Source: a virus (taxonomy: Duplodnaviria; Heunggongvirae; Uroviricota; Caudoviricetes). From it: DNA of 34,939 bases. The stretch lies in the IMG/VR virus record IMGVR_UViG_2541047957_000002. One strand, written 5' to 3'. How positions within the stretch are numbered: the stretch's first letter is position 1; every line of letters begins with the position of its first letter. Under the pieces are notes generated by a model. That model was not told where the DNA came from. It searched no databases and worked only from the letters and a program-made list of their open reading frames with translations. Positions 7,345-32,319 of the stretch are shown in pieces. The position numbers and the translations under genes were made by a program.

Positions 7345-7533
7345 ATGCAGGACTATTTTTTGGAGTCTTTGAAGCTCCAGCGCATTGATTTTTTTCTTAA
7401 GCTTGTAGCGGCTAGTGAGTGTAGTGATGAAGAGAAGGGGCTGGCCCTGCAGTGGGTTTCTGAACTAACAGATGAACTCATGGCAAAAATCAGAACCCAC
7501 GAATACAACCGCTCAATGGATGTCATCAGCTGA
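7345..7533 (+). CDS. Small SOS-operon protein, candidate Tum-like antirepressor
   Basis: 62-aa ORF with AGGAGG RBS immediately downstream of the LexA box; function inferred from position only. Confidence 0.4.
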   Translation: MQDYFLESLKLQRIDFFLKLVAASECSDEEKGLALQWVSELTDELMAKIRTHEYNRSMDVIS

Positions 7534-7543
7534 GGTGACTTTT

Positions 7544-7777
7544 ATGCGCATTGAAATAATGATCGATAAAGAGCAGAAGATTAGCCAGTCTACCCTGGAC
7601 GCTCTGGAGTCCGAGCTTTACCGCAACCTGCGCCCCCTGTATCCCAAAACGGTAATTCGTATCCGCAAAGGTAGCTCTAACGGTGTGGAACTTACCGGAC
7701 TGCAACTGGACGAAGAAAGAAAACAAGTGATGAAAATTATGCAGAAAGTGTGGGAAGACGACAGCTGGCTGCATTAA
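7544..7777 (+). CDS. DinI-family protein
   Basis: MRIEIMIDKEQKISQSTLDALESELYRNL...KIMQKVWEDDSWL resembles E. coli DinI (MRIEV...ETWESADDWF); GAGGTG RBS; second gene behind the LexA box. Confidence 0.75.
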   Translation: MRIEIMIDKEQKISQSTLDALESELYRNLRPLYPKTVIRIRKGSSNGVELTGLQLDEERKQVMKIMQKVWEDDSWLH

Positions 7778-7912: not shown

Positions 7913-7936
7913 GCCCGCCAGAACTGGCGGGCTTTT
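7913..7936 (+). terminator. Rho-independent terminator ending the SOS module
   Basis: Perfect hairpin GCCCGCCAG-aa-CTGGCGGGC followed by TTTTGCG. Confidence 0.6.
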
Positions 7937-7981: not shown

Positions 7982-8000
7982 GGCGTGGCGGGGATACGAG
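7982..8000 (+). other. Candidate cos site (cohesive-end sequence)
   Basis: GGCGTGGCGGGGATACGAG followed by CGCGCGC. The first 13 nt are identical to the 186 cohesive end as I recall it (GGCGTGGCGGGGAAAGCAT) and close to P2 (GGCGAGGCGGGGAAAGCAC); it lies on the expected side of portal gene Q. Confidence 0.5.
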
Positions 8001-8101
8001 CGCGCGCAACAGTGTAACAATCTGGATCTAATGTGATATAGTTACTGTAAATATTATTAACTATTCTTATATGCATTATTAAATATTTTAATGGAGCGTT
8101 T

Positions 8102-9775
8102 ATGGAAAAATATCAAGATGAGGAATATGTAGATGATTTAACTGAGCGTGTTTTTCTCATTAAGCAACAACTGGAAGCGGGAAAACTAAAAATAGCTCAT
8201 CATCTTGTAGAAGGTTTTATTGAAAGTTTTAAAAGAATAAGGCTGCGACAGGATGGTAAAGTTGACCCTTCTACTGTTGATGGCAGAATAAGGGCTATGG
8301 GAGCAGCGGTTAATCACTTTTTAGAAAGAGAAGATATAAAAAACAAATACTCTATTCAGGACTTGCAAAGTTCTTACTTTAATATTCTTTTTAGTAATTT
8401 TGGCGAGTTGTTTTATCTGATGAAAAAAACTAATGCAACGCCACATAAAGCATCAAGTTTTTTTTCTCAACAAGAAGAATATGTTAAGCAAATAGAAGAT
8501 ATTTTTCCTGAGTTATATAATCAGGTAATAGAGTTTTGGCAGGTAACATCCGATATTGGTGTAATACATTTGCAGGATGGTTCTCAGTTTAAAGCTAATT
8601 TTTCTGGTGACTTATTTCCTGCATTTGATGAGAATGCTGTCTCTATTGCAGGGTTGTATGTTGATACTATTTCACTTCCATGTCCTATATTAAGAGTCGG
8701 TCGTCTCTATGAAAAGTCAGATAAGGCTGAGTTTACAAGGATACTTCTGAAGCATGTCCTAACATGTATGACATATAAAGAAGTAGCGCTTGAAGATATA
8801 GAGCCAGCAATAGTATTAATTTTGCCGGATAGAAGAGATTTTGAAACTGAGAGCAAAAAAAATTTGATGAGTTTTTGTGAGCCTTATGCTCTGACTCATG
8901 CGCAATATCTCTATGATCGACGGTTCGAAAGCTACGATGAACTTCGAGATTTTAGTTATTCGATGAATGATATTGATGCTGTTCTTAAAAATATTAAGAG
9001 AGCAGATAGACTTATTTTTGATACAGCATGGGGGCTAAATCCAAAAACTCAATTAGAAAAACTACTATCTGATAAAAAAAGAATATCACGTAATGTTGTT
9101 GGTGATCATGCTGGAATGGAGGTTTTCCTTTCCTGCATTGGAAGAATGCCGCAAGCCTATTCAGCAAAATGTAATGCACAAGAACTTGGTAGTACTCCAT
9201 ATATAAATGCAGACACATCTTGGCTCTATTATACTTGGCTTATTGAGTACGAATCTCTTAATTTTGATGTCAATGATATTGAACTAAAAAATTTGCATAT
9301 GGTTCATGCGTTATCTGCTGGTATGCAAGATGGTTTTTCATGGTTAGGAAATGTACCGGTCAATAAAATAATTGAGTTGAGACGTAACAAATTGATGGAG
9401 GATGTAAGATCCATCTTATCAAATGGTGTTGACTCTTTAATCAATTCTTCGGCAGAGAGCTTTTCGAGGACAACGCAAAAAGTAATTGATAATGTAGACC
9501 GGGCTTTTATTGAACATCAAAGGATTCTTGCAAAAGCCCAAAAAGAGAAATTGAGAATTTACGGACTAGATGTCCTACCATGTATCGCAAATGGTGCTAT
9601 AGCAATTGCTGGAGCGCTGACTGGCAATACTACTTTAACGGCGTTAAGTGCAGGCCTTGGAGTAATAGGTATTCCGAGTATTAGTGATATCAAATCTAAA
9701 TTTAAGCAGAGGCAAGAGAAGCTTGATGCCTATCAACGTTCTGTTACAGGTATACTCTTTAGCCATAAATCTTAA
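8102..9775 (+). CDS. AT-rich orphan protein (557 aa), unknown function; candidate anti-phage/abortive-infection cargo with C-terminal hydrophobic Gly/Ala-rich segment
   Basis: Long uninterrupted ORF in a markedly AT-rich block (first 60 nt are 30% GC by count; flanking phage genes look far more GC-rich by eye) with RBS GGAG and its own downstream hairpin. C-terminal segment LDVLPCIANGAIAIAGALTGNTTLTALSAGLGVIGIPSI (about 9565-9685) looks like a membrane or glycine-zipper element. No Walker A or other motif recognised. Confidence 0.75.
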   Translation: MEKYQDEEYVDDLTERVFLIKQQLEAGKLKIAHHLVEGFIESFKRIRLRQDGKVDPSTVDGRIRAMGAAVNHFLEREDIKNKYSIQDLQSSYFNILFSNFGELFYLMKKTNATPHKASSFFSQQEEYVKQIEDIFPELYNQVIEFWQVTSDIGVIHLQDGSQFKANFSGDLFPAFDENAVSIAGLYVDTISLPCPILRVGRLYEKSDKAEFTRILLKHVLTCMTYKEVALEDIEPAIVLILPDRRDFETESKKNLMSFCEPYALTHAQYLYDRRFESYDELRDFSYSMNDIDAVLKNIKRADRLIFDTAWGLNPKTQLEKLLSDKKRISRNVVGDHAGMEVFLSCIGRMPQAYSAKCNAQELGSTPYINADTSWLYYTWLIEYESLNFDVNDIELKNLHMVHALSAGMQDGFSWLGNVPVNKIIELRRNKLMEDVRSILSNGVDSLINSSAESFSRTTQKVIDNVDRAFIEHQRILAKAQKEKLRIYGLDVLPCIANGAIAIAGALTGNTTLTALSAGLGVIGIPSISDIKSKFKQRQEKLDAYQRSVTGILFSHKS

Positions 9776-9781
9776 TGTAGA

Positions 9782-9809
9782 GGGCCGAGGTATTCGGCCC
9801 TTAGTTTTA
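9782..9809 (+). terminator. Rho-independent terminator of the AT-rich cargo gene
   Basis: Hairpin GGGCCGA-ggtat-TCGGCCC followed by TTAGTTTTA; overlaps the stop codon of Q on the other strand. Confidence 0.55.
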
Positions 9810-10835
9810 TATGAAACTGTATGGCATGAATTTTATTATGTCATCTTTGAGCCATTTATTGAGTTCTTCTATTCTGTTTTGTAGCGGTATCAATTCATTA
9901 CGCATAAAAACCTTACTAGCCTTCTCCACATCCCCAAATCCCCCAACATTATTCGGCATTATCCCCATCATTTGCGGCGGCACTCGGTGTGCTGCCATCA
10001 TGTCATCCCGGCTCACGTTCTTGATATTCAAAAATTCATCCTTTGCCGCGACTTCTGACAGAGGAATAATCTGAAGCCCGTCTTTTTTGCCGTTAGGCGA
10101 GTACATAAACAGGTTGCGGAAGTTGCCTGGACCTTTGGCGCTTTTCATCGCGTTACGGAGATTGTTTACATCTTCCTGGTTCTGCGCGGCGTCGGTCATG
10201 TACATGATGAAGCCTGCATGGCTGCCGTTGATGTAATACTTACGGCGGAACAGCGTGGCGGACTCGTTGAGCAGGGCTGACGGAATGGCAGAAAGATAAC
10301 CGGGCAGGCCGTAGATCTCCTGGTTGATATCTGGTTCCATCAGATGAAAAATGCTGCCTTTCGTGAACTGATACGGTTGCGTGGTCATACCGTATTGCAC
10401 AAACCAGTAGGTATCCAGGTCTAACCCGCGTCGGGTATATTTTGCCAGGGCAGGCTCAAGAGCGATAATTTCACCGAACCGGTTCGTGCGTTTCTCCAGA
10501 TAGGCGTTACCAAATACCAGATAGTCCTGCACAAAACGTGAAAAAGCCTGCTGGCTGAGCAGCGGGTGAGGGATGTAGGTGCTGGTCAGAATGTTGCACT
10601 TTACTGCAATCGGGGAACTATGATGAACGGCAGCGCGGAAGGTGCGCGCCAGTCCGTCAAAGCTGACGGGCGGCTCATACCAGCGGTCCATCTGTACGCA
10701 TTCCACATAATCCAGCAGTTCTCGGCGGTCCAGAACAGGAACGGGATCGCCGAAGCTGAATGCTTCGGCTGTAGTTTGACTTTTAAGCTGGATCTGTTTC
10801 GTCGCCGCAGCGCGGTTCTTCTTACTCTTTCCCAT
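9807..10835 (-). CDS. Q: Portal protein (P2 gpQ)
   Basis: 342-aa ORF in the conserved position and orientation next to terminase P (track begins at TTG 10838; ATG at 10835). Confidence 0.88.
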   Translation of the reverse strand: MGKSKKNRAAATKQIQLKSQTTAEAFSFGDPVPVLDRRELLDYVECVQMDRWYEPPVSFDGLARTFRAAVHHSSPIAVKCNILTSTYIPHPLLSQQAFSRFVQDYLVFGNAYLEKRTNRFGEIIALEPALAKYTRRGLDLDTYWFVQYGMTTQPYQFTKGSIFHLMEPDINQEIYGLPGYLSAIPSALLNESATLFRRKYYINGSHAGFIMYMTDAAQNQEDVNNLRNAMKSAKGPGNFRNLFMYSPNGKKDGLQIIPLSEVAAKDEFLNIKNVSRDDMMAAHRVPPQMMGIMPNNVGGFGDVEKASKVFMRNELIPLQNRIEELNKWLKDDIIKFMPYSFI

Positions 10836-12601
10836 CAAAAAAACTCCACAATATTGCTGGTATTGGCGGATTCGCCCTGCAGCGGTTCGTTAAACAGTGC
10901 GTGCATCGTTGCCCAGGCCAGATCGGCGTGGCTGGCTTCTTCGCTGCGGCTGGCTTCATAGGTCGGGCGGTTGCCACTGGCGGTGGTGGCGCGACGGATT
11001 GCCATAAAGGACTGCGCTATGTCGGTGTGTCCGGCGTCAAACTCCAGACGGCGGTGGCTGATAATGTCGTAGGCCTTGAGTACCAGGGCGTTTTTAACGT
11101 TGGGGTTGTAGACAAACTCCCGGACGGCAGGAAAAAACGCTTTCACGTTCTCGTAAACCCCGTGACCAACGCCGGTTGAGTCGATACCGATATAGGTCAC
11201 GTTGTACTGTTCGGTCAGTTTTTTGATGGCGTCAGCCTGGGCGCGGAAGTCCATTCCGCGCCACTGGTGACGCTCAAGAATGCGGAACTTACCGCCCGGC
11301 ACGGCTGGCGGCGCCACCACCACGCATCCGGCGCTGTCGCCGTTCTGCGTACCTTTCGCCGGGTCATATCCGATCCACACTTCGCGCCAGCCAAACGGGC
11401 GCAGGGCCAGTGCATGAAAGTCGGTCCAGACTTCCCAACTGTCCACCATGCACGCCTGCAGCTCGCTGAGTGGGAACACAGACGCGAGATCGTCCACGAA
11501 CTCACACATCAGCAGGTTCTGGTATTCGTCCGGGCTGTACTCCATGCGCAACTGGTCGAGGTCGAACAGGTTACAGCCGCCGCGCACCGCATCTTCCACA
11601 GTGACTATCTGGCGGTACTGCCCGTCTGCGCACAGCAGGCCGGGGGCCAGATTGCTGTGGGACAGGTCGATGTCCACCTTATCGGCTTTGTTGCGCCCTC
11701 GGTTGAACAGCGCACCGGACCAGAACGGATAAGCACTGTGTGTCAGGCTGGATGGCGTGGAAAAATAGGTTTGTCGCCATTTTTTGTGAATAGCCATACC
11801 GGAAGCCACTTTGCGCAGCTCCTGGAATTTCGGTATCCAGAAATATTCATCCAGATACAGGTTGCCGTGGTAACTCTGGGCCGTGCGGGCATTGGTGCCG
11901 AGGAAGTACAGCGTGGCCCCGTTAGGAAGCACCATCGGATCGCCTTTCAGCTCCACCTCCACTTCTTTGGCGAAGTCGATGATGTACTGCTTAAAGACGT
12001 GGGCCTGAGCCTTGCTGGCGGAAAGGAAAATCTGGTTACGCCCGGTTAGCAGGGCGTCAATCAGGGCTTCACGGGCAAAATAGAAGGTCGCGCCGATCTG
12101 GCGTGACTTCAGCAGGTTGCGGATGCGGTTGGTTTTTCCGGCTTCCCACCAGTGGCGCTGGTAGTTGAACATGGAGGAATGGAAGATTTCTTCCAGCTTC
12201 TCAATCTGTTCATCGGTGAAAACGTTCTTTTCCGGCTGACGGCGCGGGCCTTTGTTGCGGTTGGCGACGTTAGGGTTTAAGTCGGCTTCGTTGCCGCCAT
12301 TGTTAAACTTGCCGATCCGCGCATGGCGCTCCGACTGGCGCGCCAGCAGGTCAATCTCTTTGAAATCTTTCCCTTCTTTGTGCTCCTTCATAATGAGCTG
12401 GCAGTAGCGTGCGGCGGTGGTGAGCTGCATCTGATCCAGCGGCCCATAGTCACCCCACTTGTCGCGTTTTTTCCAGCTGTGAACGGTTGCAACTTTCTCG
12501 CCCAGCATTTCAGCAATGCGGGCTACGCGGTATCCCTGAAAGTACAGCAGCATGGCCTGCCGACGGGGATCGAGATCTGCGGGTGTCAGTGTGGTGTTCA
12601 T
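10835..12601 (-). CDS. P: Terminase large (ATPase) subunit (P2 gpP)
   Basis: 588 aa, divergent from capsid gene O, co-oriented with Q; P2-family terminase arrangement. Confidence 0.9.
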   Translation of the reverse strand: MNTTLTPADLDPRRQAMLLYFQGYRVARIAEMLGEKVATVHSWKKRDKWGDYGPLDQMQLTTAARYCQLIMKEHKEGKDFKEIDLLARQSERHARIGKFNNGGNEADLNPNVANRNKGPRRQPEKNVFTDEQIEKLEEIFHSSMFNYQRHWWEAGKTNRIRNLLKSRQIGATFYFAREALIDALLTGRNQIFLSASKAQAHVFKQYIIDFAKEVEVELKGDPMVLPNGATLYFLGTNARTAQSYHGNLYLDEYFWIPKFQELRKVASGMAIHKKWRQTYFSTPSSLTHSAYPFWSGALFNRGRNKADKVDIDLSHSNLAPGLLCADGQYRQIVTVEDAVRGGCNLFDLDQLRMEYSPDEYQNLLMCEFVDDLASVFPLSELQACMVDSWEVWTDFHALALRPFGWREVWIGYDPAKGTQNGDSAGCVVVAPPAVPGGKFRILERHQWRGMDFRAQADAIKKLTEQYNVTYIGIDSTGVGHGVYENVKAFFPAVREFVYNPNVKNALVLKAYDIISHRRLEFDAGHTDIAQSFMAIRRATTASGNRPTYEASRSEEASHADLAWATMHALFNEPLQGESANTSNIVEFF

Positions 12602-32084: not shown

Positions 32085-32164
32085 CGCTGCCGCCATTTTG
32101 TCGCCATCGTTAAAAAGCAGTGCTTCTAACATCATGATTTTAAAAGGCATAAATTTCAGACAAC

Positions 32165-32207
32165 AAAAAACCCATCAACCTTGAACCGAAATGGCGGGGT
32201 TGATGGG
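32165..32207 (-). terminator. Rho-independent terminator (minus strand) downstream of ybjL, near the presumed prophage/host junction
   Basis: Stem CCCATCAACC ... GGTTGATGGG with an A-run on the plus strand, giving a T-run after the hairpin on the minus strand. Confidence 0.5.
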
Positions 32208-32319
32208 CTCCACAAAATGGGGACATCAAAGAAAAGCAGTGGCACTAATTAAGACTGATGCCCTGCGGAAAAGTTCTGCGGTTGTGCAAAAAAATTTCAT
32301 TTTCAGGGCAACTTCAGTT

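What the first reader, a model, noticed from the sequence alone, without database searches (positions are those of the whole stretch)
8001..9809. AT-rich 557-aa orphan gene inserted exactly between cos and portal gene Q: candidate undescribed single-gene defence or abortive-infection cargo
A 1.67-kb ORF (8102-9775) sits in a sharply AT-rich block (first 60 nt are 30% GC by count; the flanking phage genes look far more GC-rich by eye) that begins about 25 bp after the candidate cos site and ends in its own hairpin terminator right at the Q stop codon. In P2 as I recall it, cos and Q are separated by only about 100 bp, so this is a discrete foreign insertion in the A-to-Q accessory region where P2-like phages are known to carry anti-phage cargo (old, tin). 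The protein has no motif I can assign (no Walker A, no clear nuclease or kinase signature). It ends with a Gly/Ala-rich hydrophobic segment (LDVLPCIANGAIAIAGALTGNTTLTALSAGLGVIGIPSI, small-xxx-small repeats) followed by a basic tail, which suggests a membrane-inserting effector. It is transcribed opposite to Q/P and sits downstream of the SOS-regulated tum module, and the +-strand terminator at 7913-7936 implies it has its own AT-rich promoter region (8030-8095), so it may be expressed in the lysogen.
Basis: partly seen in the sequence, partly recalled or inferred. Interest (0 to 1): 0.85.

Follow-up and report, generated by a model that had tools for sequence, protein, structure and literature searches.

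The report
Standalone DitB-like defence candidate in P2 hotspot
A 557-residue gene of foreign composition sits in the known variable "defence hotspot" next to the packaging site of a P2/186-like prophage; it belongs to a large, unstudied protein family distantly related to one half of the two-gene Aditi anti-phage system, and is a plausible but untested single-gene phage-defence protein anchored to the membrane.

Summary
ORF 8102-9775 (+) lies in an AT-rich block (GC 0.35, GC3 0.25; flanks 0.50-0.57). The block starts at 8008, 7 bp after the cos cohesive-end equivalent (7982-8000), and ends in a hairpin terminator (9780-9802) before the portal stop. P2 and 186 have only ~170 bp here.

This is the published gpA-gpQ defence hotspot of P2-like phages. 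Only 17 of 1,272 E. coli genomes sharing the flanks carry this gene; others carry retrons, nucleases or KAP NTPases.

The protein is not an orphan. It represents 757 clusters (50% identity) in at least 7 phyla. It always stands alone, and in a minority of sampled loci lies beside Gabija or MADS genes or in the P4-satellite hotspot. It has no Pfam domain and no structural analogue, despite a confident model (pLDDT 82).

Its core is remotely but significantly homologous to DitB of the two-gene Aditi system. DitA is absent everywhere. The family adds a conserved C-terminal Gly/Ala-rich hairpin with basic flanks.

Best reading: a single-gene, membrane-tethered anti-phage protein, a standalone variant of the Aditi DitB module. 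Defence function and mechanism are inferred, not shown. An allele is already catalogued as "hypothetical" in Rousset 2022 Table S5; no test of it was found.

The parts
7913..7936 (+). Hairpin plus T-run ending the upstream A/DinI-like (tum-type) transcription unit, before cos
   Evidence: GCCCGCCAG-AA-CTGGCGGGC-TTTTG is visible in the sequence. The automatic scan did not list it because the T-run has only 4 T.
7982..8000 (.). cos cohesive-end equivalent (19 nt); the conserved junction continues to 8007
   Evidence: Aligns to the annotated cosL of P2 (1-19) and cos of 186 (1-19). The motif was found at 7982. The sequence is identical through 8007 in five prophages carrying different cargo.
8008..9806 (.). 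Variable cargo block (foreign, AT-rich insertion) between cos and the portal gene
   Evidence: Homology to other P2-like prophages stops at 8007. GC is 0.31-0.38 against flanks of 0.49-0.61. P2 and 186 have only 167 and 176 bp here. Other prophages hold different cargo.
8014..8042 (+). Sigma-70 promoter-like site (GTAACA-17-TATAGT with TG extended -10); candidate own promoter
   Evidence: Consensus scan. This is a consensus match only. The number of such sites in the region is not above shuffles.
8093..8096 (+). Shine-Dalgarno GGAG, 5 nt upstream of the ATG
   Evidence: Read directly from the sequence.
8102..9775 (+). 557-aa ORF (stop included): standalone DitB-like family protein
   Evidence: ORF list. 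RefSeq annotates it as 'hypothetical protein' WP_097335535 / WP_024235280. 212 close homologues of uniform ~556-560 aa length. 757 representative clusters. dN/dS is 0.084 against the Citrobacter orthologue.
8102..8491 (+). N-terminal helical region (aa 1-130), mostly absent from DitB (one weak, non-significant alignment of family positions 102-150 to DitB 4-52)
   Evidence: AF2 helices 7-25, 33-44, 61-82, 85-109 and 114-122 at pLDDT 84-95. About 15 of the best 150 representative clusters start near residue 80-85, so they lack the first ~80 residues.
8492..9457 (+). DitB-homologous alpha/beta core (aa ~131-452) with conserved polar residues H156, K164, D188, T189, R348, S373, R427, R436
   Evidence: PADLOC DitB E=3.4e-9 over residues 195-452, found in 26 of 43 family members. 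The 82-sequence family HMM scores DitB at 38.4 and 17.9 bits, against a maximum of 7.7 bits in 2,000 shuffles; HMM positions 131-374 align to DitB 35-275. Conservation.
9461..9562 (+). Charged stalk helix (aa 454-487) leading into the hairpin; its last 16 residues are net +4
   Evidence: AF2 predicts one continuous helix over 454-507. The N-flank is net positive in 91% of family members.
9563..9679 (+). Gly/Ala-rich hydrophobic helical hairpin (aa 488-526: ~20 aa, a 4-aa neutral turn, ~16 aa); candidate membrane-inserting or anchoring element
   Evidence: Highest KD19 in the protein, 1.62. Family-mean peak 1.39 in 82 divergent sequences. In 200 members the median maximum KD19 is 1.70, and this is the most hydrophobic segment in 85%; Hessa dGapp median is +3.9 kcal/mol, which is marginal. 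Ala+Gly make up 31% and the segment is uncharged.
9680..9772 (+). Basic amphipathic tail (aa 527-557) ending in the conserved motif [ST]-P-x-G-[LI]-L-F
   Evidence: The C-flank is net positive in 78% of members. Motif conservation: S547 71%, P548 76%, G550 83%, L552 71%, F553 65%. G550 and F553 are invariant in A1.
9780..9802 (+). Rho-independent terminator-like hairpin between the convergent cargo gene and portal gene Q
   Evidence: 10-bp stem, 6 GC pairs, T-rich tail. Each alternative cargo has its own hairpin at the equivalent place. P2 and 186 have tQ/tW there.
9807..10838 (-). Portal gene Q (flank; not part of the cargo)
   Evidence: ORF. RefSeq annotates it as 'phage portal protein'.

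Best explanation
The block 8008-9806 is a horizontally acquired 'moron' cassette in the cos-adjacent gpA-gpQ defence hotspot of a P2/186-like prophage. It has its own promoter-like site, ribosome-binding site, a single 557-aa gene and a terminator.

The protein belongs to a widespread family that always occurs as a single gene. Its central alpha/beta core is a remote homologue of DitB, one of the two proteins of the Aditi anti-phage system. The family lacks DitA. It carries instead an N-terminal helical region and a C-terminal stalk, a Gly/Ala-rich hairpin and a basic tail.

Proposed mechanism (inferred). The protein is made in the lysogen and sits at the cytoplasmic face of the inner membrane. 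The hairpin holds it there, with both basic flanks in the cytoplasm. The DitB-like core senses an infection cue through its conserved His/Lys/Asp/Arg/Ser pocket. The C-terminal hairpin then rearranges or oligomerises to compromise the membrane, or to block a membrane-associated step, which aborts the incoming phage's cycle.

What is shown: the position, foreign composition, accessory status, cassette autonomy, family breadth, DitB homology, absence of DitA, conservation of the hairpin, and purifying selection.

What is inferred: the anti-phage function (about 0.6), membrane association (about 0.5) and a membrane-disrupting abortive mechanism (about 0.3).
For: Hotspot location. The gene lies between replication gene A and portal Q, next to cos. 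This is the locus Rousset et al. showed to be a reservoir of anti-phage systems. The 2026 NAR study found that unknown genes picked from the P4 satellites' equivalent hotspot gave protection in 6 of 8 tests, and that machine-learning scores flag 15-32% of the unknown P2 proteins as antiviral.

Accessory status. 17 of 5,426 E. coli genomes carry it, while 1,272 share the flanks. The same slot holds a retron St85 pair, a dsDNA-nuclease pair, DprA or a KAP NTPase in other prophages.

Foreign but functional. GC is 0.354 and GC3 0.246. dN/dS is 0.084 against a Citrobacter orthologue in the same slot, which has the same AT-rich signature.

Defence-type contexts elsewhere. In Aquitalea it lies next to GajA/GajB inside Tn7-like cargo. 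GajA/GajB occur in 3 loci and MADS genes in 3-4 loci; integrases, transposases and R-M parts lie within +/-3 genes across 26 loci. It occupies the P4-satellite hotspot in Enterobacter and Pseudocitrobacter. It also sits in an integrase island in Aeromonas.

DitB homology. PADLOC E=3.4e-9, found in 26 of 43 members. The family HMM scores DitB at 38.4 and 17.9 bits, against at most 7.7 bits for 2,000 shuffles.

Single-gene unit. No neighbour is conserved across 26 loci. No DitA-like gene was found.

Hairpin. It is conserved as the most hydrophobic segment in 85% of 200 members. It has basic flanks and a neutral 4-residue turn, consistent with the positive-inside rule.

Not a virion or housekeeping protein. 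No PHROG, Pfam, NCBIfam, BFVD or PDB match.
Against: - There is no experimental phenotype for this protein or for any family member. It was not among Rousset's tested systems as far as the stored tables show, nor in the DefensePredictor supplements.
- DitB homology is remote: pairwise hhalign against two DitB sequences gives only P=0.008. Aditi's own mechanism is unknown, so the homology transfers a 'defence' label but no biochemistry.
- The hairpin is only marginally hydrophobic. Hessa dGapp has a median of +3.9 kcal/mol, and only 1% of members fall at or below 1. Its second arm is about 16 residues. It could be a buried or oligomerisation element and not a membrane segment.
- The defence enrichment of neighbourhoods is qualitative. 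Known defence genes were seen in a minority of loci. Several contexts are uninformative.
- The promoter call is a consensus match no better than shuffles.
Confidence: 0.55

Rival explanations
1. Superinfection-exclusion protein. It would be a membrane-anchored prophage protein that blocks DNA entry or another envelope-associated early step of incoming phages, without killing the cell, in the manner of Sie/Imm-type proteins. It would not be an abortive-infection effector.
For: It is prophage-borne, has a lysogen-type cassette, and has a C-terminal hairpin with basic flanks that suggests inner-membrane tethering. No toxic or enzymatic domain is recognisable.
Against: The family is common outside prophages, in chromosomal islets, transposon cargo and next to Gabija. 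That distribution is typical of general defence genes more than of phage-specific exclusion proteins. About 490 residues are cytoplasmic, with a conserved polar pocket, which suggests sensing or catalysis and not passive blocking.
Confidence: 0.15
2. Soluble defence protein. The Gly/Ala-rich hairpin would be a buried or oligomerisation element. The DitB-like core would act directly on a nucleic acid, nucleotide or phage protein, with no membrane role.
For: The hairpin is marginal on the Hessa scale, with a median of +3.9 kcal/mol. AF2 models it as a continuation of a long helix packed in a helical bundle. The conserved Arg/Lys/His/Ser/Asp residues in the core would suit binding of a phosphate-containing ligand. 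DitB itself works without such a hairpin.
Against: pLDDT drops to about 59-68 over residues 501-530. Basic flanks around an uncharged ~40-residue segment follow the positive-inside rule in most members, although the protein is net acidic. KD19 is at least 1.6 in 69% of members.
Confidence: 0.15
3. Not a defence gene. It would be another kind of accessory cargo: a counter-defence factor, a lysogenic-conversion or fitness factor, or a selfish addiction-type gene that merely hitch-hikes in recombination hotspots.
For: Function is untested. Hotspots also carry non-defence morons. Only a minority of neighbourhoods contain recognised defence genes.
Against: Homology to a validated defence component, DitB. 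It occupies precisely the slots that hold retrons, nucleases and KAP NTPases in sister prophages and in P4 satellites. It is adjacent to Gabija in three unrelated genomes. Unknown genes drawn from the P4 satellites' hotspot protected in 6 of 8 tests. At 557 aa it is large for a typical anti-defence protein (own knowledge).
Confidence: 0.12
4. A phage structural, packaging or replication protein of this prophage lineage, so core and not cargo.
For: It sits beside the packaging site and the portal and terminase genes.
Against: It is absent from about 99% of E. coli prophages with the same flanks, and absent from P2 and 186. Only one record in 50,697 phage genomes has it. No PHROG or BFVD match. 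It is found in non-phage contexts across phyla.
Confidence: 0.01

Closest known systems
Aditi defence system (DitA + DitB; Millman et al. 2022)
   Same: The central ~250-320 residues are significantly, though remotely, homologous to DitB. Shared motifs include E-[NH]-x-V-S-x-G-x-Y...D-[TD]...P and G-x-x-x-Q-A...P-[YF]-I. Like Aditi, it has no recognisable domain and lies in defence and mobile contexts.
   Different: Aditi is a two-gene system. No DitA is present here, in the window or in 26 other loci. The protein has 557 aa against 361-372 aa for DitB. It has an extra N-terminal helical region, and a C-terminal stalk, hydrophobic hairpin and basic tail that DitB lacks. The two Aditi systems cloned for testing were from Firmicutes; this family is mainly proteobacterial but spans at least 7 phyla.
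P2 cos-adjacent hotspot cargo (old, tin, retrons, TIR+TM systems and others; Rousset et al. 2022)
   Same: Same genomic slot between gpA and gpQ next to cos. It is accessory and variable, has atypical composition, and forms a self-contained cassette. An allele is listed in their Table S5 as 'hypothetical + DinI + hypothetical'.
   Different: It has no sequence or domain relationship to Old, Tin, retrons, PARIS or any Rst_/PD- model in PADLOC. It does not appear in the stored supplementary tables of systems they tested.
Defence effectors with transmembrane helices (for example the TM partners of retron, CBASS and Thoeris-type systems, and RexB); own knowledge, not tested here by homology
   Same: A short C-terminal hydrophobic helical hairpin is attached to a large cytoplasmic sensing module. 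This suggests membrane disruption as the output.
   Different: No sequence match to any such family in PADLOC or Pfam. The hairpin is Gly/Ala-rich and only marginally hydrophobic. In that respect it looks more like the insertion hairpins of soluble-to-membrane proteins such as colicin pore domains (own knowledge) than like constitutive TM helices.
Eleos / bacterial dynamin-like LeoBC
   Different: Only 1 of 43 family members gives the hit. There is no GTPase or P-loop domain. No LeoA partner was noticed in the contexts examined, and no neighbour is conserved. The match most likely reflects similar composition.

Membership tests
Aditi (DitA+DitB) | A DitB homologue is present | tested here: met
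   PADLOC DitB E=3.4e-9, found in 26 of 43 members. The family HMM scores DitB at 38.4 and 17.9 bits, against at most 7.7 bits for 2,000 shuffled controls. The homology is remote and covers only the core.
Aditi (DitA+DitB) | An adjacent DitA gene (two-gene operon) | tested here: not met
   hhalign of A1 against DitA gives E=0.15. phmmer of DitA against 436 neighbour ORFs from 26 loci, and against the window in six frames, gives E>1 throughout. No neighbour family is conserved. Only the first ~400 of 483-490 DitA residues were available.
Aditi (DitA+DitB) | DitB architecture: ~360-370 aa with no hydrophobic C-terminus | tested here: not met
   The protein has 557 aa. DitB aligns only to about aa 131-452. 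The stalk, hairpin and tail are absent from both DitB sequences.
Aditi (DitA+DitB) | Confers phage resistance | not testable with these tools
   Needs cloning and plaque assays.
P2-like phage cos-adjacent defence-hotspot cargo (Rousset 2022) | Located between gpA and gpQ, adjacent to cos | tested here: met
   Gene order A - 62-aa ORF - DinI-like - cos - cargo - Q - P. cos aligns to the P2 and 186 cohesive ends. The junction lies at 8007/8008.
P2-like phage cos-adjacent defence-hotspot cargo (Rousset 2022) | Variable content among otherwise homologous prophages | tested here: met
   17 of 5,426 E. coli genomes carry this gene, while 1,272 share the flanks. Alternative cargo is seen in L005-L008.
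P2-like phage cos-adjacent defence-hotspot cargo (Rousset 2022) | Demonstrated anti-phage activity | not testable with these tools
   The allele WP_024235280 is listed only in the locus catalogue (Table S5) and was not found in the other stored supplementary tables, including the table of tested systems.
Membrane-spanning abortive-infection effectors | Bona fide transmembrane helices | tested here: inconclusive
   Median KD19 is 1.70, and 69% of members reach 1.6. Basic flanks and a neutral turn are present. However, Hessa dGapp has a median of +3.9 kcal/mol and the second arm is about 16 aa. No dedicated TM predictor was available.
Eleos / bacterial dynamin-like proteins (LeoBC) | Dynamin-type GTPase domain; consistent profile match | tested here: not met
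   No Pfam GTPase hit. The LeoBC hit has E=0.0046 and occurs in 1 of 43 members only.
Phage structural / morphogenesis proteins | Homology to virion or assembly protein families; presence in related phages | tested here: not met
   PHROGs best E=0.13. BFVD Foldseek best E=0.72. One hit among 50,697 phage records. Absent from P2 and 186.

The most novel reading that the evidence does not exclude
This family would be a widespread, single-polypeptide immune system with a previously unseen fold. A DitB-type sensor core would be hard-wired to a marginally hydrophobic, colicin-like insertion hairpin that is kept sheathed in the resting protein. On sensing phage, the hairpin would be driven into the inner membrane, making this a new class of membrane-disrupting abortive-infection effector. 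It would also explain Aditi: DitB would be the sensor module, and DitA the separable effector that the hairpin replaces here.
Probability: 0.2. Interest if true: 0.7.

Novelty: new variant of a known kind. Interest (0 to 1): 0.5.

Why it matters
Aditi is one of the few validated defence systems with no recognisable domain and no proposed mechanism. This family shows that the DitB module also exists as a much more widespread, self-sufficient single gene, with 757 clusters at 50% identity in at least 7 phyla. It is native to E. coli prophages and therefore directly testable in the standard host with standard phage panels.

It offers three things:
- A tractable entry point to the Aditi/DitB mechanism.
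- A confident predicted structure with no solved analogue.
- A concrete hypothesis of effector swapping, with a membrane hairpin in place of DitA.

It also adds one more annotated occupant to the roughly 19% of P2-like prophages that currently have 'no identifiable defence' at their hotspot.

Tried and rejected
1. Pfam, NCBIfam and PHROGs scans gave only noise, with E of 0.13 or worse.
2. A sequence search of the PDB gave nothing meaningful.
4. I re-predicted the DitB-like core alone (aa 100-455) to get past the helical matches. The model was poor (pLDDT 66, pTM 0.45, conserved sheet around 30), so I did not use it for a fold search.
5. The LeoBC/dynamin lead was rejected. It appears in 1 of 43 members and there is no GTPase domain.
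6. A DitA-DitB fusion was rejected. Neither the N/C-terminal extensions nor the ~190-aa N-terminal domain of the long variants resemble DitA.
7. A HEPN-like R-x4-H at R467-H472 was rejected because R467 is not conserved (consensus).
8. Identity with systems newly named from the P4 satellites' hotspot was rejected. Toga is an AAA/SMC-head ATPase, and the others are nuclease, kinase, KAP or R-M-like. Family motif strings are absent from that preprint's supplements.
9. Accessions were not found in the DefensePredictor supplements.
10. Two literature searches on 'Aditi/DitA/DitB' were swamped by unrelated words. A clean search for DitB plus phage returned no papers.
11. Rfam found no RNA element in or near the cassette.
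Full report
**Observation.** The window is a complete P2/186-like prophage. ORF 8102-9775 (+) encodes 557 aa and has a GGAG 5 nt upstream of the ATG. Windowed GC is 0.31-0.38 between 8000 and 9650, against 0.49-0.61 on both sides. The ORF has GC 0.354 and GC3 0.246, whereas genes A and Q have GC3 of 0.571 and 0.590.

Window 7982-8000 (GGCGTGGCGGGGATACGAG) aligns with the annotated 19-nt cohesive ends of P2 and 186. Five E. coli prophages carrying different cargo are identical through 8007 and unrelated from 8008. The foreign block is therefore 8008-9806.

A promoter-like site with an extended -10 lies at 8014-8042. A strong hairpin terminator at 9780-9802 lies 4 nt before the convergent portal stop. 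Each alternative cargo carries its own hairpin at that position. In P2 and 186 the cos-to-portal spacing is 167 and 176 bp; here it is 1,806 bp.

**Where it sits.** Rousset et al. 2022 defined exactly this region as a hotspot of anti-phage systems: cos-proximal, between gpA and gpQ. The 2026 NAR study of thousands of P2 and P4 elements confirms it. That study reports that 19% of P2 elements have only unknown genes there. Unknown genes picked at random from the P4 satellites' equivalent hotspot protected in 6 of 8 tests. Machine-learning scores flag 15-32% of the unknown P2 proteins as antiviral.

In 5,426 complete E. coli genomes, 1,272 carry the conserved cos segment but only 17 carry this gene. 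Sampled sister prophages hold other cargo between the same cos segment and Q:
- a retron St85 effector plus reverse transcriptase
- a dsDNA-nuclease pair
- DprA
- a KAP-like P-loop NTPase

An allele of the protein, WP_024235280, appears in Rousset's Table S5 as 'hypothetical + DinI + hypothetical'. It does not appear in the other stored supplementary tables, including the table of tested systems. I also did not find it in the DefensePredictor supplements. It is not one of the newly named hotspot systems; Toga, the only single-gene candidate I could not exclude from the text, is an AAA/SMC-head ATPase.

**The protein is not an orphan.** A word-indexed search found 212 relatives, nearly all 554-561 aa, all named 'hypothetical' and with no Pfam domain. 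An exhaustive profile search found 757 representative clusters at 50% identity, of which 265 had E of 1e-30 or better.

Loci from species-representative genomes cover Gamma-, Beta- and Alphaproteobacteria, Cyanobacteria, Acidobacteriota, Chloroflexota, Firmicutes, Bacteroidota and Melainabacteria. The Citrobacter orthologue (79% identity) sits in the same cos-Q slot of a P2-like prophage. It has the same AT-rich signature and a dN/dS of 0.084. So this is a functional protein under purifying selection that moves horizontally.

**Context elsewhere.** All-against-all clustering of 436 neighbouring ORFs from 26 loci found no conserved partner. The only neighbour family present in three or more loci is a GajA-like OLD-TOPRIM ATPase.

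Scanning 124 genes within +/-3 positions gave these counts:

| Neighbour family | Loci |
|---|---|
| GajA and GajB | 3 |
| MADS components | 3-4 |
| Integrases | 3 |
| DDE transposases | 3 |
| Type I R-M parts | 2 |
| Psu | 2 |

Individual contexts:
- In Aquitalea the gene is Tn7-like cargo, immediately upstream of a Gabija pair.
- In Aeromonas it lies in an integrase/AlpA island beside mutS.
- In Enterobacter soli and Pseudocitrobacter it follows P4-type alpha-primase, Psu and delta genes, which is the cos-adjacent hotspot of P4-like satellites.
- Other contexts (E. kobei, Yersinia, Scandinavium) are small islets or mobile-element neighbourhoods.

The signature is that of a standalone, mobile, defence-island-type gene. 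The enrichment is qualitative.

**What the protein looks like.** Pfam, NCBIfam and PHROGs give nothing, and no PDB chain is related by sequence. AlphaFold2 with 43 homologues gives a confident model with mean pLDDT 81.7 and pTM 0.73. It has an N-terminal helical region, a central alpha/beta core with four short strands, and a 54-residue helix (454-507) running into a helix-turn-helix and a final helix.

Across 82 sequences only 22-44% identical to the query, the residues conserved at 90% or more include a polar set: Q89, Y92, H156, K164, D188, T189, R348, S373, R427, R436 and N464. This is compatible with a ligand-binding or catalytic pocket of unknown specificity.

**Relation to Aditi.** PADLOC's DitB model matches residues 195-452 at E=3.4e-9 and matches 26 of 43 family members. 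Millman et al. describe Aditi as two proteins with no detectable domain even by HHpred. Their supplement gives DitA (483/490 aa) and DitB (372/361 aa) sequences.

An HMM of the 82 divergent family members scores B. simplex DitB at 38.4 bits (HMM 131-374 aligned to DitB 35-275) and the validated S. kuerlensis DitB at 17.9 bits. The best of 2,000 shuffled DitB sequences scores 7.7 bits. hhalign with only two DitB sequences is weaker, at P=0.008.

DitA shows no similarity to the family, to any of the 436 neighbours, or to anything in the window in six frames.

The core is therefore a genuine remote DitB homologue. The Aditi membership test fails on the defining two-gene architecture and on protein architecture. 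The literature held here contains no mechanistic work on Aditi or DitB.

**The C-terminal module.** Residues 488-526 form the most hydrophobic stretch of the protein, with KD19 of 1.62. In 200 full-length members the C-terminal segment has a median maximum KD19 of 1.70, and 69% reach 1.6. It is the most hydrophobic segment in 85% of members.

It consists of roughly 20- and 16-residue arms joined by a 4-residue uncharged turn. Ala and Gly make up 31% of it. The 16 residues before it are net positive in 91% of members (median +3). The 19 residues after it are net positive in 78% (median +2). The proteins are net acidic overall.

That pattern fits the positive-inside rule for an N-in/C-in hairpin or a re-entrant anchor. 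On the Hessa biological scale, however, the arms are marginal (median +3.9 kcal/mol). Constitutive Sec-type insertion is therefore not predicted. A post-translational or conditional insertion, or a buried oligomerisation role, remains possible.

The extreme C-terminus carries a conserved [ST]-P-x-G-[LI]-L-F motif. DitB lacks all of this.

**Mechanism proposed.** Shown:
- an autonomous, foreign, accessory cassette in a validated defence hotspot
- a single-gene family with a DitB-type core under purifying selection
- a conserved C-terminal hairpin with basic flanks

Inferred:
- The protein is expressed from the prophage and tethered to the cytoplasmic face of the inner membrane.
- The DitB-like core senses an infection cue.
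- The hairpin module delivers the output, either membrane damage (abortive infection) or interference with a membrane-associated phage step.
- By analogy with modular effector swapping in other systems, the hairpin may functionally replace DitA.

I put the anti-phage role at about 0.6, membrane association at about 0.5, and a membrane-disrupting abortive mechanism at about 0.3. The rivals are non-lethal superinfection exclusion, a soluble DitB-like enzyme or binder with a structural hairpin, non-defence cargo, and a structural phage protein (effectively excluded).

**Novelty and verdict.** The locus type is known, and the gene has been catalogued but never named. No test of it was found in the sources checked.

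What is new here:
- recognition of a large standalone DitB-related family
- its distinct architecture and its lack of DitA
- a confident fold with no solved analogue
- its movement between P2 and P4 hotspots, transposon cargo and chromosomal islets

This is best classed as a new variant of a known kind. Interest is moderate. A specialist would expect an unknown hotspot gene to be defensive. The link to the mechanistically opaque Aditi system, and the direct testability in E. coli, make it a worthwhile experimental target.

Noticed in passing
window 7345-7777: Between gene A and cos lie a 62-aa ORF (7345-7533) and a DinI-like (186 Tum-type) gene. The DinI-like gene lies within ORF 7472-7777, and RefSeq calls a 77-aa product. 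Both genes recur in five of the six sister prophages examined, upstream of varying cargo; one (L008) has only the 62-aa ORF. Some prophages also carry extra cargo on this A-proximal side of cos (L006, L008), so the hotspot has two sub-slots separated by cos.
   Followed up: partly
P0195, P0223, P0233, P0238, P0240, P0245, P0246, P0251, P0261, P0266 (residues ~1-200): About ten representative clusters of the family carry an extra, mutually homologous N-terminal domain of ~190 aa. It has invariant W14, W19, F50, W53, R114 and others. It has no Pfam, PADLOC or PDB match and no similarity to DitA. It is an uncharacterised fused module that may be an alternative sensor or effector.
   Followed up: partly
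L010 8644-11671; L022 5240-9079: In Enterobacter soli and Pseudocitrobacter vendiensis the family gene follows P4-type alpha-primase, Psu-domain and delta-like genes. That is the P4-satellite cos-adjacent hotspot. In L022 the next gene downstream looks like a portal (Q-like) N-terminus, which hints at a P4/P2 chimeric junction at cos.
   Followed up: partly
A1 members, N-terminal ~65 residues; P0218 residues 309-374: 10 of 43 family members give weak hits (best E=6e-4) to the small PADLOC 'Avs1c' model (86 positions) in the N-terminal helical region. The significance is unknown.
   Followed up: no
NZ_CP016404.1 1602379-1605720 (hit H12): In E. coli strain 210221272 the 2.1-kb query matches in two pieces spread over 3.3 kb, with three 'hypothetical protein' features. 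This suggests an insertion of about 1.2 kb, possibly an IS element, inside or beside the cassette.
   Followed up: no
window 32162-32240 (-): The host sRNA gene RybB (Rfam RF00110, 105 bits) lies just beyond the prophage's late-gene end and marks the bacterial flank. On the other side, the related locus L001 shows the integrase next to rcdA/ybjJ.
   Followed up: no
L005 4249-6976: A sister prophage carries a two-gene cargo in the same slot: a 'dsDNA nuclease domain-containing protein' (359 aa) and a 552-aa hypothetical protein. The second is similar in size to the protein studied here. I did not compare the two.
   Followed up: no
CP019275.1 / NZ_CP019275.1 (37,446 bp) and NZ_CP019279.1 (22,592 bp), E. 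coli 13P477T: The same strain carries the cassette on the chromosome and on two small extrachromosomal records. One of these is also filed in the phage collection. This may reflect an excised or replicating P2-like element, or an assembly duplication.
   Followed up: no
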